This document shows positions 16,223-63,218 of a stretch of 64,000 nt of DNA, piece after piece. The number at the start of each line of letters is the position of its first letter. The first letter of the stretch is position 1. This stretch comes from Octopus vulgaris (taxonomy: Eukaryota). The stretch covers positions 78,616,001 to 78,680,000 of the forward strand of contig OX597816.1 in the NCBI GenBank assembly GCA_951406725.2, in the 5' to 3' direction. The notes beneath the pieces were generated by a model that made no database searches, had not been told where the DNA came from, and saw only the letters and a program-made list of their open reading frames with translations. The position numbers and the translations under genes were made by a program.

Positions 16223-16312
16223 AACTTAGAGTCTGAAAAGACCATGAAAAAGAATATGTTCTGGCTATTTTATAGTTGCACATTCCATTTTGAAAGTCAC
16301 AATCAAAGGGAC
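16223..16312 (-). CDS. MAM-array gene, exon h (N-terminus of MAM domain D)
   Basis: ttctacag|GT acceptor, T|gtaagt donor, 90 nt, phase 1-1. Translates GPFDCDFQNGMCNYKIARTYSFSWSFQTLS. Not in the ORF track. No following exon was found in 1-16222. Confidence 0.85.
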
Positions 16313-18722
16313 CTGTAGAAAACATGTAAATGAAAGTTTATGCACCATAATTTGAAGAACTGAATTTTTGGGATTTCAAAACAGATAAATTTCTTTGAAA
16401 GTTTCTTTTGCTAGTTCTGAAATATTTAACACAAAATATATATATTATACTTCCACTTCAAGTAATTATCAATTAAATTACTGCAACAATTTAATAATGT
16501 GTCTGTATAGATATTAGAATAAAAAATAAAAGGCAAGTAATTTTTTTTTATATTTAACATACTGAAATTCAAATTTTGAATATCAATTCATAAAAATTTG
16601 AATATCAATTAATAAAATTAATTAAAATCGATACAGATCATAGAGACAAGTGCTTTTCTGCTGTCTAGTATGTGTACATATGTCTTAGGGTGGGTGGACA
16701 ACAGTTATAGCTTAGTCAGGAAGAGAAGGATGTGGCCATCATCTTTGCAATCCCTCTCAGATAAGTAGGGTTAAATTTTTAACATTAGTTCAGCTTTAGC
16801 ATCTCCAAGCTGAAGTTTGCATAATGATACAAACAAGGAGAAAATTCTAGAAGGTTTGTGCTCTTGTGAAGATAGCTGGGTCAAAGTATTTATTCTGGAA
16901 CCTGGGTGGCAGTTGATATAGTAGAAAAGGAGAGAGAGGTGTGTTGGGTGAGGTGAGCAAGCAAATAATTCTGATTAACACATCCAATCCAGTCTATGGT
17001 ACTGAGTTCAAATACTTTATGGTTGGATAAGCCATTTATCCATGTAAGATTAAGAAATAAGTACCAGTAATAGCCTGGATTAAAATTAATTGACAATATT
17101 CTTTTCACCTTACAAAGAATATATTGCTCTGCAAAGTGTAGCAAGAATACAAATAACTTTTCTGTTGGGATCCCAGGCTATTTCAGTTTTGATTGTTGTT
17201 ATTTCATTTTCCTGGCCCTGATATTTTCCTTAGTAAGAAGAGTATGATCCTAGCAACTTTCGAGACTTCCCCACCTTAGGTACCATGCCTACTTAGAGAA
17301 GTAAACAAGGAATATTTTGTTTCTTCAGCTTACATGGCTAAAACTTGCAATTTATGGTGTTATCCTGAATACTTAGTGCACCATTGCTAGTTACATTGAA
17401 AACCAGATTTCTGGGAATCCCATAATCCATTGGATTCTTGAAGGCCCCACTTAAATTTCCATTACATGGATATTTTGAGTGAGTCAGCCTGATGAAGCTT
17501 AAATCACATATGGGTGGATTTGAGCTGAACATTGTAACTGGTCGGATCTCTTCATCTGTAGGTTTTCAATATTCTCAACTATTTTGCTATCACTGTGTAA
17601 CTGAATGCAGAAGATTGACCAGTGTCTGTATGTGGACTAATATGGTAATCAATGAATTAGTATAATACTCCAGAAAAGAGAGTAGTATTTTGAAGATACT
17701 ACATCCATACTGTAAAGTGAAAATAACTGCCTTTTGCTGAATTAGGAAAAACTTTAAAGGTAATTCCAGCTGTCCACTAAAGAAAACCTGGAAGAATGTT
17801 GTAAAGCTGAAATATATGAGAAGATAGAAATATCAAGCATAATTTATCATTATGGCAGGGAACATCATCAACTGTTGTGGAACAAAGTCAAGATAGCAGA
17901 TAAAGAACATGGAAGATAAGATGATGGAAGGAATCAGTGTATATGCTTAGCTTTGATAACTTTTTCAGTAGTCTTAGCAGAGGAAAGAATATCATATACC
18001 ATTAATTAAGAAAGAGCACTAAACTTTCAAACACAGTTAGGGTTCCATTACCAATTTGTTTTATGTGACAAAGGGATTGTGTATATAAGGAATGAATAGA
18101 TGTCACATATATGTAGTAGTTTAGCTAGCAGATATGCATTCAAGGCCAGTCAAATAATATTTGGTTCAAGTGGGACAAGTGACATCACAAGCAGAACAGC
18201 TAATATGAAAATGTCTCTGGTATGGCTAAAGAATGAGAACAATCGATCTCTCTGGACCGAATAAAAGGTTTGGTTTGAAATTACAAGAAGGTTACCATAT
18301 ATGACAGACACCCATAAACAGTCACAGAGTACAACAACTGAAACATTGTAACTATAACAAGCAAAGTAAAGACACTAGTTTGGACATATCAGTTTATAAA
18401 TAATTCCTTATCTCAGAAATTCAGAATTTGTTTCCTTCCTATTGATGAAAATATCATCAAAATGTCAATTCAAAAATGATTTTTTACTGAGTGATAATAC
18501 TGAATGGGTTGTATATAATCAACTGTACTTATAAACAGAAGTCTTTTCAATGTTGATAAGATTTGTTCTAGAGGTGAGAATGATGAAATTAACTGTTTAG
18601 GCTTGTGCAATACCACTTCATTTATATCTACCCAGTGATCAAGTCAATAATGGTTATATAAACAAACACTTCCAATTTAGCAAACCTTTTTACATATGAA
18701 AAATAAAATTTTAAAATATTAC

Positions 18723-19061
18723 CAGGGCATCCTTTTTCTTCAATTACCACATTGTCTATTGCAATGTCTCCTTGGTATGAATATCCTCTTACAGCTACAA
18801 ATATGATTTCACTTATGTCATTTGTAATAGGTACACATGCTTTGAGCCAGTATTCTCCTTTATTTCCTGTCATCATCCAAACTATTTCTTCATTTGAAGA
18901 TTGACTAGTGATAAATACAACATATAGTTGACCAACATATCTTCCATACATGTTGTAATCAAATTTCAGCTGTTTCCCTTTGGCATCTTTTGAAACTGGA
19001 AACTTAAGACTTGTTGTATCATTGTAATTTCCATTAGAAGCTTCTGCATATATATAGTGTC
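18723..19061 (-). CDS. MAM-array gene, exon g (C-terminal half of MAM domain C)
   Basis: Poly-T tract then tacag|GA acceptor, G|gtaat donor, 339 nt, phase 1-1. Translates GHYIYAEASN...LKFDYNMYGRYVGQLYV...GNKGEYWLKACVPI...IIFVAVRGYSYQGDIAIDNVVIEEKGCP. Confidence 0.93.
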
Positions 19062-20013
19062 CTGTAAAAAAAAAATGATAATATTGATTTGTCAGTTATT
19101 TATTAACAATTTAGAAAGTAGAATTGGATATTAGAATTATTAAAACAACATTTCCATGAGAAATTTTATATCTAATGTTTTTTTTTAGTTAATATAAAAT
19201 GTTGAATAGTAATTCTGTAGTAATACATTGAAACTTTATAATGTATCTTTCAAGTAACAAAAAAATATGACTATTGGCTTGTTTTATTGGATTTGATTTA
19301 ACTTTATGTAACATAGATTCAGTAACAACATTCCTTATACTAGTTTATAACATCTCTTCACCAAAATTGAAACTTATCATTGTGGAAACGAATTTTATCC
19401 TTAATTCCTACTAGAATTGTATCCTACCATCTAGCTCCAACATGATATCTCATCCTATGAGTAAAGATGTTGAGAAGAGGACCAAACAGATAGGAATAAC
19501 TGTTCTTGAGTCATTTCAAATTTGTTCCTGCCACCTTGCTGTGTTTCTGGGTTGAATACTGTATTCTACATTATCTAAAATCATGTTAGCTATTGCAAAT
19601 AAATACCAATTCAATCTAGTAATGTGCAGCAATTGTGTCAGTCCATTTTGTCATTAGACCCACATTCTAGGTAATGGCTGGTATAGTCAGGAAAATGTGC
19701 AGTGTCTACAGCCATCACAAAACTTTCGACAAGTTAAATAGATATAGTTGATATCTAGCTAAATGTTCTGTAAGTTAACATGTGCAACAAAAATGTAGTA
19801 GGAGGGGCTAAATAAAGGAGTTCATTTGAGTTGGTGATGAGACATAGCAGAAGTAAATGAAGAAGGAGGGAGGGATGTGCAGGGTAGCAATTATGGAAGA
19901 AGCAAAGACACACACACATAAGTAATGTTATCAGAAATACATGAGACAAGGAGAAAGAACTCAACAAAAGTAGAGTTTAACCAAATGGTTACATATTTCA
20001 GAAAAAAGGTATC

Positions 20014-61945: not shown

Positions 61946-61971
61946 GCTAGTCATAGAGTATGTATATAGAT

Positions 61972-62100
61972 ATCATCATCGTCGTCGTCATCATCATCAT
62001 CATCATCATCATCATCATCATCATCATCATCATCATCATCATCATCATCATCATCACCATCATCATCATCATCATCATCGTCGTCGTCGTCGTCGTTGTT
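61972..62100. repeat. (CAT)n microsatellite
   Basis: Direct inspection. One of many microsatellites: (TAA)n, (TA)n, (CA)n, (TATC)n. Confidence 0.95.
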
Positions 62101-63065
62101 GTTTAACGTCTGCTTTCCATGCTGACATGGTTTGACATAGTGCTGGCCAGTAGGGTGCTGTTCAGACTCCAATTGTCTATTGTGGCATGATTTCTATGGC
62201 TAGATGCCCTTCCTAATGCCAACAACTTAACAGAGTGTGCTGGGTGCTTCTTATGTGCCACTGGCATGAGTGTGTTTACACAACACTGGCACAGGTGCAT
62301 TGATGCACTGACATGGGTGCTTTTTTAAGTGGGACCAACACCTGAAAGGACAAGCCTGTATATGTGGAAGACAGTGATTTTATTTAGCTTGACACATTTC
62401 CACCATTTCCTCTTCCTCCATTTCTGCATCCTCTATTTCCTCCTCCTCCTCCAAAAGATTTCAACGACTTCCTATGACTTCCTCTCATCTCAACCAATAC
62501 GCTACTCTTTATAAGACTTCAGCTAGTCCATTTTTCCAATCCCCCAGGGGTGTCAATGGCTCTCGCCACAACATATAGAGAGGAGAAAATTTTATTTTTG
62601 CATTTGTTTTGATTTTGCACAATCAGTAATATTTTTGCTATTTGTCATCCTTTTTAATGAGTCATTCTTTCATTGTTGTTTAGTCTCATATCAACTCTGA
62701 TCTAATAGATCTATGGTCAAAGGCATTTTTAGCCATGACCAATCCATTTTTTTTCAGACAGAGTAGGTGAAACTGCATTATCCAATATGTCTGTATTCAT
62801 TAAGTCTAAGTTTTAAGTATTTAAGGTGACATAATTAACTTTCAGAGCAAAAGGGTAGTAGTAAGAACAATAGACCCAAGTGGTAAAATATAGGTTCCAG
62901 GTTCAATCATCAAAGATCATTGGAGAGAATACTAATTAAAATTTGGTGTCAAAAGCACAAAGAAAAAAACGAGCAACAGCACAGAACAGATTTTTTCTTA
63001 CTCTATGATTGTTTTATCAAAGAAACTTTATTAAGAGAAATATCAAAGAAACTGAGATTAATTAC

Positions 63066-63218
63066 CTTTATTACTTTCAGTTGTGTGATCACTTTTGGGT
63101 ATTGATTGTCCCGGCAGTTTGTATGTATAGGGTTGAACACGTTGCCATTCATAATCTGCTGTACCTTCACTAACCATTCCACAAATGTTGTTATCAAATG
63201 GGCAAAATGCTTTAGTTG
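63066..63218 (-). CDS. MAM-array gene, exon a (N-terminal half of MAM domain A)
   Basis: ttccag|CA acceptor, G|gtaat donor, 153 nt, phase 1-1. Translates (x)TKAFCPFDNNICGMVSEGTADYEWQRVQ...PKSDHTTESNK, matching the MAM CxFxxxxC...W...PxxDHT motifs. Confidence 0.9.

What the first reader, a model, noticed from the sequence alone, without database searches (positions are those of the whole stretch)
16223..63218. Tandem-MAM protein whose domains share a relocated cysteine
Established: canonical MAM domains (meprin, neuropilin, PTPmu) have four Cys, two in CxFxxxxC, one opening the CLxFxYxM strand, and one at the C-terminal end. Seen: all three complete domains here lack the third Cys (GSVSFYHHM, FKLEFLYYM, KQLKFDYNM), keep the terminal Cys (ENSC, KGYC, EKGC), and gain a Cys exactly four residues after the conserved Trp (WKHQC, WQYGC, WLKAC), despite otherwise low mutual similarity. 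Inference: the second disulfide has moved to another strand, defining a distinct MAM subtype in a secreted or cell-surface array protein. I do not know of a description of it but cannot exclude one.
Basis: partly seen in the sequence, partly recalled or inferred. Interest (0 to 1): 0.72.

Follow-up and report, generated by a model that had tools for sequence, protein, structure and literature searches.

The report
Octopus protease with shifted MAM disulfide
These exons encode the front part of a large secreted octopus protease whose repeated MAM binding domains appear to have swapped one partner of a conserved disulfide bond, a rare but probably mild structural variant also seen in some clam proteins.

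Summary
Confirmed. Eight AG/GT exons splice to 518 codons without a stop. All three complete MAM domains lack Cys3, keep the terminal Cys and carry Cys at Trp+4.

The gene is Octopus vulgaris. It encodes more than an array: signal peptide, SRCR, five Trp+4-type MAMs, three canonical MAMs with LDLa repeats, then an S1 protease. An exon-2 peptide is listed in an octopus skin-mucus proteome.

Of 1,609 scored MAM domains, 1,506 have Cys3, 54 have Trp+4 Cys and none has both. All 54 keep the terminal Cys. Covariation in canonical domains puts Trp+4 on the neighbouring strand, on the same face as Cys3. A disulfide partner swap is therefore likely, but no 3-D model was obtained and the distance is unmeasured.

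The variant also occurs in clam MAM-TSP1 proteins; one origin versus several is unresolved. Disulfide reshuffling is known in other domains; I found no MAM case. New variant of a known kind.

The parts
63066..63218 (-). Exon 1: N-terminal half of MAM1 (Cys1, Cys2); hypervariable between species
61002..61242 (-). Exon 2: MAM1 core. Ser at the Cys3 position (61159-61157); Trp+4 Cys at 61027-61025
61034..61075 (-). [quoted passage not shown]
   Evidence: PMC10138644 supplementary Table S1, rows 359 and 935
55456..55550 (-). Exon 3: end of MAM1; terminal Cys at 55462-55460
53924..54049 (-). Exon 4: N-terminal half of MAM2 (Cys1, Cys2); hypervariable
47085..47435 (-). Exon 5: C-terminal two thirds of MAM2. 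Lys at the Cys3 position; Trp+4 Cys 47196-47194; terminal Cys 47091-47089
44176..44334 (-). Exon 6: N-terminal half of MAM3, with a fifth, unpaired-looking Cys at 44272-44270 (Cys2+6)
18723..19061 (-). Exon 7: C-terminal two thirds of MAM3. Gln at the Cys3 position; Trp+4 Cys 18837-18835; terminal Cys 18729-18727. Absent from the 1,618-aa O. vulgaris database model, present in orthologue models
16223..16312 (-). Exon 8: start of MAM4 (Cys1, Cys2). The gene continues beyond the low end of the window (rest of MAM4, MAM5-8, LDLa, SRCR-like, protease); signal peptide and SRCR lie beyond the high end

Best explanation
The window holds exons for MAM1 to MAM4 of a roughly 1,980-residue secreted Octopus vulgaris mosaic serine protease. 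Its order is: signal peptide, SRCR, five Trp+4-type MAM, three canonical MAM each followed by LDLa, SRCR-like, two LDLa, SRCR-like, S1 protease. It belongs to a tandem cephalopod gene family.

Shown: gene structure, the cysteine pattern and its exclusivity, the architecture in relatives, and one mucus peptide.

Inferred (about 0.85): in the five N-terminal MAMs the terminal Cys has changed partner. In the canonical fold it bonds to Cys3 at the start of the 'CLxF' strand. Here it bonds to the Cys at Trp+4 on the next antiparallel strand, the diagonal neighbour of Cys3 on the same outer face, so the C-terminal tail stays stapled to the sheet. The swap most likely happened once in an ancestral MAM module and spread by tandem duplication of the phase 1-1 exon pair; a second, probably independent swap occurred in clam MAM-TSP1 proteins.

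Inferred (about 0.5): the swap is largely structural and near-neutral. The array is a docking or recognition arm with fast-evolving loops that positions the protease on mucus components or microbes at the body surface. The protease is not trypsin-like in specificity or activation.
For: Splice model. Exon 5 is 100% identical to O. vulgaris P0001, and relatives from O. sinensis and O. bimaculoides carry all exons in order. Architecture. Domain order is five Trp+4 then canonical in P0003, P0005, P0008 (Argonauta) and unnamed P0099. Counts: 1,506 Cys3-type (1,497 keep the terminal Cys), 54 Trp+4 (54 keep it; 38 clusters at 70% identity), 8 with a Cys further upstream, 41 with neither (only 17 keep it), 0 with both. 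Spacing from the Asp-Asp motif to the terminal Cys is unchanged: 8 residues in 53 of 57 Trp+4 domains and in 1,266 of 1,524 Cys3 domains. Covariation on 1,498 non-Trp+4 domains recovers both known disulfides (ranks 1 and 5 of 11,476 pairs). It also gives an antiparallel ladder (columns 77-118, 76-117, 76-119, 72-121, 75-120) that sets column 119 (Trp+4) opposite Cys3+2 and diagonal to Cys3, and tail columns 153-154 couple to column 121. Canonical 1-2 / 3-4 pairing is stated for an insect MAM crystal structure (PMC11203654, passages). Catalytic His, Asp and Ser are intact in P0001. The closest solved sequence to the tail is enteropeptidase (E 4.8e-38). Two spectra of an exon-2 peptide were found in skin mucus, also assigned to a 1,989-aa O. 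vulgaris transcript ORF. N-half exons are 51-77% identical to O. sinensis against 97% for the protease domain.
Against: No 3-D model or disulfide mapping; the distance between the two Cys is unmeasured. The direct coupling between columns 119 and 155 is weak (z 2.4, rank 206 of 11,476) and carries no signal when both Cys columns are fixed. MAM3 and MAM5 have a fifth Cys that could take part in other pairings. 17 of 41 domains with neither Cys still keep a terminal Cys, so retention alone does not prove a bond. The O. vulgaris database model P0001 skips exons 7 and 8. Mucus evidence is one peptide, two spectra, from a supplement cut when stored; the same accessions were not found in the held text of an ink-proteome supplement. 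No Arg or Lys precedes the activation position in 9 of 9 cephalopod-type protease domains, and P0099 lacks the catalytic His and Ser, so activity is not assured. Trees do not resolve one origin or several (AU p 0.20, 0.31, 0.13, 0.15).
Confidence: 0.75

Rival explanations
1. The second intradomain disulfide was simply lost. The Trp+4 and terminal cysteines are surface thiols that bond between neighbouring domains, between chains or to mucins, building a cross-linked array.
For: Trp+4 faces outward by its alternation on the strand (inference). Meprin uses a surface MAM Cys for dimers (PMC5104691, passages and one section). The protein is found in mucus. A fifth Cys in MAM3 and MAM5 shows the array carries unpaired-looking thiols.
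Against: The two Cys always occur together within one domain (54 of 54), including the last Trp+4 domain before a canonical one and short clam proteins with two MAMs. They sit next to the old bond site, and tail length is unchanged.
Confidence: 0.12
2. The swap is adaptive. It frees the start of the Cys3 strand and changes the angle at which each domain hands over to the next, allowing MAM domains to stack directly without LDLa spacers and present variable loops for ligand recognition.
For: Within one protein, the directly tandem N-terminal MAMs are all Trp+4 type and those followed by LDLa are all canonical. The same position was used in clam proteins that the best tree does not join to the cephalopod domains. 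Adjacent exons are hypervariable.
Against: Many directly tandem arrays without LDLa keep Cys3 (for example the MAM-only proteins, scored canonical). The split within the protein is equally explained by descent from one duplicated module (AU p 0.31 for one cephalopod clade). A single origin of all Trp+4 domains is not rejected (p 0.20).
Confidence: 0.25
3. The protein's main role is digestive or developmental (an enteropeptidase-like zymogen activator, or a hatching or egg-coat enzyme), and its presence in skin mucus is incidental.
For: The LDLa-SRCR-protease tail is closest to enteropeptidase among solved sequences. The matching transcript comes from a paralarval transcriptome (PMC10138644, passages). 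Only two spectra were seen.
Against: There is no acidic residue at the S1 position and no Arg/Lys activation site, unlike enteropeptidase (numbering recalled). No SEA or CUB domain was found. Fast change of the binding arm with a fixed protease suits recognition of variable ligands.
Confidence: 0.3
4. Artefact: the pattern comes from misalignment or from joining exons of different genes.
For: Introns are long (up to 25 kb) and full of transposon debris. The O. vulgaris database model omits two of the exons.
Against: In MAM2 and MAM3 the Cys3 position, Trp+4 Cys and terminal Cys all lie in one exon. Four orthologue or paralogue models and Argonauta show the same order and pattern. A 1,989-aa transcript ORF matches the full-length form.
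Confidence: 0.02

Closest known systems
Canonical MAM domain (Pfam PF00629; solved in neuropilin-1/2, meprin alpha/beta, PTPmu/kappa, MDGA1, enteropeptidase, insect SR-C)
   Same: Pfam match, Cys1-Cys2 pair, aromatic core positions, Asp-Asp motif and terminal Cys at the usual spacing.
   Different: Cys3 is replaced (mostly by Ser or Lys) and a Cys appears at Trp+4. In the solved-structure sequences I saw aligned (MDGA1, SR-C, two neuropilin-1 constructs, enteropeptidase) Cys3 is present and Trp+4 is not Cys. Other solved MAMs were listed but not inspected.
Disulfide-bond reshuffling by partner replacement (nematode Type 3 ZP-C domains, PMC7456536, passages seen; ape placental ribonuclease, Zhang 2007, seen only as a citation there)
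   Same: One Cys of a conserved pair is kept, its partner is lost, and a new Cys arises on the adjacent strand; described there as rare and of unclear adaptive value.
   Different: Different fold. Here the variant is multiplied in tandem within one chain beside canonical copies, and recurs at the same position in a second mollusc family.
Enteropeptidase and other mosaic S1 proteases (TMPRSS2; invertebrate MAM/LDLa/trypsin proteins of Owenia, tunicates and corals)
   Same: LDLa-SRCR-protease tail, MAM in the stem, intact triad.
   Different: Eight MAM domains (the seventh seen by eye and in P0099/P0139, below the profile threshold in P0003), N-terminal SRCR, no SEA or CUB, no clear anchor, no Arg/Lys activation site, Pro at the S1 position. 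The Owenia, tunicate and coral proteins have no Trp+4 domain.
[quoted passage not shown]
   Same: Alternating MAM and LDLa in the middle of the chain.
   Different: The name misses the protease domain and the Trp+4 array. Named MALRD1-like proteins from fish, frog, echinoderms, brachiopods and other molluscs scored canonical.
Clam MAM-TSP1 proteins (Mactra antiquata P0149 and P0271, Ruditapes philippinarum P0253, unnamed P0262)
   Same: 9 of 9 scored MAM domains are Trp+4 type with a terminal Cys.
   Different: TSP1 repeats instead of a protease. Four of these domains are 47-53% identical to canonical MAMs and the best tree does not join them to the cephalopod ones.

Membership tests
MAM domain (PF00629) | Profile match above the curated cut-off | tested here: met
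   Exons 2, 5 and 7 exceed 26.4 bits on their own; P0001 scores 269 bits, best stretch covering 1-158 of 158 positions.
MAM domain (PF00629) | Cys1-Cys2 pair in CxFxxxxC at the N-terminus | tested here: met
   Present in 4 of 4 domain starts in the window.
Canonical four-Cys MAM | Cys3 opening the CLxF strand, bonded to the terminal Cys | tested here: not met
   Absent in 3 of 3 complete window domains; replaced by Trp+4 Cys.
Canonical four-Cys MAM | Terminal Cys about 8 residues after the Asp-Asp motif | tested here: met
   53 of 57 Trp+4 domains at +8 and 4 at +9.
MAM domain (PF00629) | Jelly-roll beta-sandwich fold | tested here: inconclusive
   No model obtained. Language-model feature score 0.95 to MAM clusters and conserved core positions are indirect.
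MAM domain (PF00629) | Structural Ca/Na site seen in neuropilin-1 and meprin | not tested
   Described as variable between MAMs (PMC9848320, passages); ligands not mapped here.
Reshuffled-disulfide subtype (proposed) | Physical bond between Trp+4 Cys and terminal Cys | not testable with these tools
   Only co-occurrence and covariation geometry were obtained.
S1 (chymotrypsin-fold) serine protease | His-Asp-Ser triad | tested here: met
   Intact in P0001, whose protease exons lie outside the window; His and Ser absent in P0099.
Trypsin-type specificity and activation | Asp at S1 and an Arg/Lys-Ile activation site | tested here: not met
   Pro six residues before the catalytic Ser; 0 of 9 cephalopod-type domains have Arg/Lys at P1 (numbering convention recalled).
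Enteropeptidase / type II transmembrane serine proteases | N-terminal membrane anchor with SEA and CUB domains | tested here: not met
   No SEA or CUB by Pfam. Only a short N-terminal hydrophobic stretch resembling a signal peptide (no dedicated predictor run).
MALRD1-type receptors | MAM-LDLa alternation throughout, C-terminal membrane anchor, no protease (recalled) | tested here: not met
   Five MAMs are directly tandem, the chain ends in a protease, and there is no C-terminal hydrophobic peak.

The most novel reading that the evidence does not exclude
Cephalopods have a tandem family of secreted mucus proteases and pseudo-proteases whose arm of re-stapled MAM domains is a rapidly diversifying recognition surface, shuffled between paralogues by gene conversion, and possibly oligomerised through the fifth cysteines of MAM3 and MAM5. 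The same disulfide swap arose independently in clams, showing a repeatable structural route. This would be an undescribed innate-recognition protease system of the octopus body surface.
Probability: 0.22. Interest if true: 0.68.

Novelty: new variant of a known kind. Interest (0 to 1): 0.43.

Why it matters
Disulfide cysteines are usually gained or lost in pairs, and partner replacement is described as rare (PMC7456536, passages). This gene offers a clean case with built-in controls: five swapped and three canonical MAM domains in one chain, and a possible independent repeat in clams. That makes it a cheap test bed for whether such swaps are neutral or functional.

It also corrects an annotation. 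The gene is named as an MALRD-type receptor, but it encodes a secreted mosaic protease found in skin mucus, with a fast-evolving binding arm. That makes it a candidate for surface defence in a farmed species whose immunity is poorly known.

The swap itself probably leaves the fold intact, which limits the surprise.

Tried and rejected
Hidden or alternative MAM exons in the long introns: none. Only the 8 exons score below E 0.01 and none is duplicated.

'Trp+4 Cys is common in MAM domains': rejected. It is in 54 of 1,609 scored domains from a sample drawn with Trp+4 queries, all in cephalopod-type proteases, clam MAM-TSP1 proteins or short unnamed fragments. The sample is top hits only (90, 91 and 120 of 480 listed) and is thin in arthropods, nematodes and mammals.

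An intermediate with both cysteines: 0 found. Other stray cysteines at Trp+2 or Trp+3 occur beside Cys3 in a few domains and are not the same position.

Number of origins: the 112-row constrained test did not finish. On 36 domains (16 Trp+4 from 5 proteins, 20 hand-picked canonical; trait columns removed; LG+G4; long branches flagged) no grouping was rejected. A Fisher test is not used as evidence because the domains are related.

Protein-atlas searches returned only generic MAM clusters. The Limulus astacin-MAM paper says nothing on MAM disulfides in the passages seen (PMC9629494).

Literature: ten searches of an open-licence library found no description of this MAM variant or of the gene. 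Subscription papers are not covered. The supplement of PMC11431876 could not be read and may list this protein. PMC11525497 has no mention of MAM (find). PMC4545420 passages do not discuss MAM cysteine variants.

Left open: no 3-D model, no accession lists for the protein clusters, no DNA or intron positions for relatives (no animal genome collection on hand). Metagenome and viral contig collections stayed unchecked.
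Full report
1. The observation. Eight exons at 63218-63066, 61242-61002, 55550-55456, 54049-53924, 47435-47085, 44334-44176, 19061-18723 and 16312-16223 each have AG and GT ends and join to 1,554 nt, 518 codons, with no stop. Introns are 1.4 to 25 kb. Pfam MAM matches 6 of the 8 exons. With a MAM profile built here, these 8 are the only fragments below E 0.01 among 2,057 six-frame fragments, and no exon is duplicated. 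MAM1-3 are complete. Each has Cys1, Cys2, a Cys four residues after the conserved Trp and a terminal Cys, and lacks Cys3.

2. What the gene is. Exon 5 is 100% identical to an Octopus vulgaris database protein (P0001, 1,618 aa). Close relatives come from O. sinensis (P0003, 1,981 aa) and O. bimaculoides. P0001 skips exons 7 and 8, but the relatives carry all eight in order. A published O. vulgaris transcript ORF of 1,989 aa shares an exon-2 peptide with this protein, so the long form is the likely one. The chain reads: signal-peptide-like N-terminus, SRCR, five tandem MAMs, three more MAMs each followed by LDLa, an SRCR-like region, two LDLa, a second SRCR-like region and an S1 protease. The seventh MAM is divergent and is read from the sequence and from P0099 and P0139. 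Hydropathy shows no internal or C-terminal anchor. Paralogues share a longest-contig length within each species (two in O. vulgaris, two in O. sinensis, four in O. bimaculoides), which suggests a tandem family (inference). Argonauta hians and two unnamed proteins (P0099, P0139) have the same architecture.

3. The protease domain, outside the window. His, Asp and Ser are intact in P0001, and the closest solved sequence is enteropeptidase (E 4.8e-38). By recalled chymotrypsin numbering the S1 position is Pro and position 216 is Val. None of 9 cephalopod-type domains has Arg or Lys before the activation position, and P0099 lacks the catalytic His and Ser. It is therefore not a trypsin, and its activation route is open.

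4. Expression. Supplementary Table S1 of an O. vulgaris skin-mucus proteome (PMC10138644; passages and searched supplement, cut when stored) lists two high-confidence spectra of a 14-residue peptide encoded at 61075-61034. The three O. bimaculoides paralogues differ within this peptide, but a near-identical O. vulgaris paralogue cannot be excluded. The held supplement text of an ink proteome had no match (PMC10142993). A later mucus paper names MAM-LDLa proteins as differentially abundant, without accessions in the passages seen; its supplement could not be read (PMC11431876).

5. How rare the pattern is. I pooled 290 proteins from three homologue searches and one search of cluster representatives and aligned 1,817 MAM hits to one profile. 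After dropping 208 incomplete hits, 1,609 were scored. Of these, 1,506 have Cys3 (1,497 keep the terminal Cys); 54 have the Trp+4 Cys (all 54 keep it; 38 clusters at 70% identity); 8 have a Cys further upstream; 41 have neither (17 keep it, several with another Cys elsewhere); none has both. The 54 are 35 domains in 9 named octopod proteins, 7 in P0099 and P0139, 3 in short unnamed fragments, and 9 in four MAM-TSP1 proteins (Mactra antiquata twice, Ruditapes philippinarum, one unnamed). In full-length cephalopod-type proteins the N-terminal MAMs are all Trp+4 and the later ones all canonical. Named fish, echinoderm, amphioxus, tunicate, coral, brachiopod, annelid, gastropod and other bivalve proteins had no Trp+4 domain. 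The sample is biased towards the variant and thin in arthropods, nematodes and mammals. The domains are related, so these counts describe a pattern and are not a significance test.

6. Geometry. No 3-D model was obtained. As a substitute I computed covariation on 1,498 domains lacking the Trp+4 Cys. It recovers both known disulfides (columns 1-8 rank 1, 74-155 rank 5 of 11,476 pairs), in line with the pairing reported for an insect MAM crystal structure (PMC11203654, passages). It also shows an antiparallel ladder between the Cys3 strand and the Trp strand (77-118, 76-117, 76-119, 75-120, 72-121). This puts Trp+4 (column 119) opposite Cys3+2 and diagonal to Cys3 on the same face. With both Cys columns fixed (1,147 domains) the ladder persists, and tail columns 153 and 154 couple to column 121 (z 3.0 and 4.2), so the tail already crosses to the Trp strand. 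Against this, the direct 119-155 signal is weak (z 2.4, rank 206) and uninformative in the fixed set. Tail length is unchanged. Taken together, a partner swap of the terminal Cys is the simplest reading; I put it at about 0.85.

7. Origin. With the trait columns removed, a 36-domain tree keeps the ten cephalopod-type Trp+4 domains together with one long canonical branch, on weak support, and places the clam domains among canonical ones. Four clam domains form a strong clade. AU tests reject nothing: all Trp+4 together p 0.20, cephalopod only 0.31, clam only 0.13, cephalopod plus four clam domains 0.15. One swap followed by tandem duplication of the phase 1-1 module fits the cephalopod gene. 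An independent swap in clams is favoured by the best tree but not shown.

8. A further feature. Against O. sinensis P0003 the protease domain is 97% identical, exons 2+3 97% and exon 7 90%, but exons 1, 4, 6 and 8 only 69, 51, 77 and 55% and exon 5 78%. Exon 1 is closer to O. bimaculoides P0005 (84%) and exon 4 to P0004 (68%). These N-half exons encode the loop-rich part of the domain, and loops are the variable functional parts of MAMs (PMC9848320, passages). This suggests diversifying selection or conversion between paralogues; without DNA for relatives it is untested, and hidden paralogy is possible. The fifth Cys occurs in 15 of 48 Trp+4 domains (MAM3 and MAM5 positions) against 6 of 1,414 canonical ones. 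Meprin uses such a Cys for dimers (PMC5104691, passages and one section).

9. How it most likely works. Shown: gene structure, cysteine pattern, architecture, one mucus peptide. Inferred: the terminal Cys bonds to Trp+4 and the fold is kept (0.85); the protein is secreted and the SRCR-MAM arm docks the protease on surface ligands (0.5); the swap itself is near-neutral (more likely than adaptive, about 0.6 to 0.25). Rivals are inter-domain or inter-chain bonding (0.12), an adaptive change of domain stacking (0.25), a digestive or developmental role (0.3) and artefact (0.02); these are not all mutually exclusive.

10. Comparison and novelty. The domains are MAM by profile but fail the canonical four-Cys test. 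The protein works like an enteropeptidase-style mosaic protease in layout but is not a member of that family, nor of MALRD1 despite its automatic name. Partner replacement onto an adjacent strand is described for nematode ZP-C domains and called rare (PMC7456536, passages). Ten literature searches found no account of this MAM variant or this gene, within an open-licence library. Verdict: a real, apparently undescribed variant of a known domain, by a known kind of event, in an under-annotated octopus protease family. Interest 0.43.

Noticed in passing
window 44272-44270 (-), exon 6: Fifth Cys at Cys2+6 in MAM3; also in MAM5 of relatives (15 of 48 Trp+4 domains against 6 of 1,414 canonical). It could link MAM3 to MAM5, form dimers or bind mucins.
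   Followed up: partly
window exons 63218-63066, 54049-53924, 44334-44176, 16312-16223: MAM N-half exons are 51-77% identical to the O. sinensis counterpart while the protease is 97%; exons 1 and 4 are closer to different O. bimaculoides paralogues, suggesting diversifying selection or gene conversion.
   Followed up: partly
window 19061-16223: The O. vulgaris database model P0001 omits exons 7 and 8, fusing MAM3's first half to MAM4's second half, and also lacks the SRCR and other segments present in P0003; probably an annotation error.
   Followed up: yes
P0001, P0003, P0005, P0008, P0009, P0011, P0026, P0099, P0139 protease domains (outside the window): No Arg/Lys activation site in 9 of 9. 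P0099 lacks the catalytic His and Ser, and P0009/P0011 have Val two residues before the Ser where Gly is usual, so the family may include pseudo-proteases.
   Followed up: partly
P0149, P0271 (Mactra antiquata), P0253 (Ruditapes philippinarum), P0262 (unnamed): A clam MAM-TSP1 family in which every scored MAM (9 of 9) is Trp+4 type; no description found.
   Followed up: partly
P0116, P0155, P0161, P0252, P0173, P0202: Canonical MAM domains with extra cysteines at other places on or after the Trp strand (Trp+2, Trp+3, Trp+8 and beyond).
   Followed up: no
P0108, P0123, P0128, P0148, P0170, P0090 (unnamed): MAM-like repeats lacking Cys1-3 at the usual places, several with Cys at profile columns 55 and 66; the partner domains of P0090 suggest a bacterial origin. 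A different cysteine layout again.
   Followed up: no
window 2-2485 (-): LINE remnant: endonuclease (1547-2482) and reverse transcriptase (2-1210) frames.
   Followed up: no
window 35345-36400 (+): Tc1/mariner transposase in two open frames (DNA-binding and DDE parts), inside the 25-kb intron 6.
   Followed up: no
window 21400-25100 (+): Degenerate LTR-type retroelement: reverse transcriptase 23233-23637 and integrase 24318-24629 fragments.
   Followed up: no
window 15281-15568 (+), 36750-39117 (+), 39114-40079 (+), 42049-42951 (-): Mos1-type HTH fragment; a second LINE remnant with an RT fragment at 37875-38168; two frames that look by eye like Penelope-type endonuclease tails but have no Pfam hit at 1e-3.
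   Followed up: no
whole window: Dense microsatellites (AT, AAT, CTAT, CA, GA-rich; 85 rows from the tandem-repeat finder), which account for most of the other long open frames.
   Followed up: no
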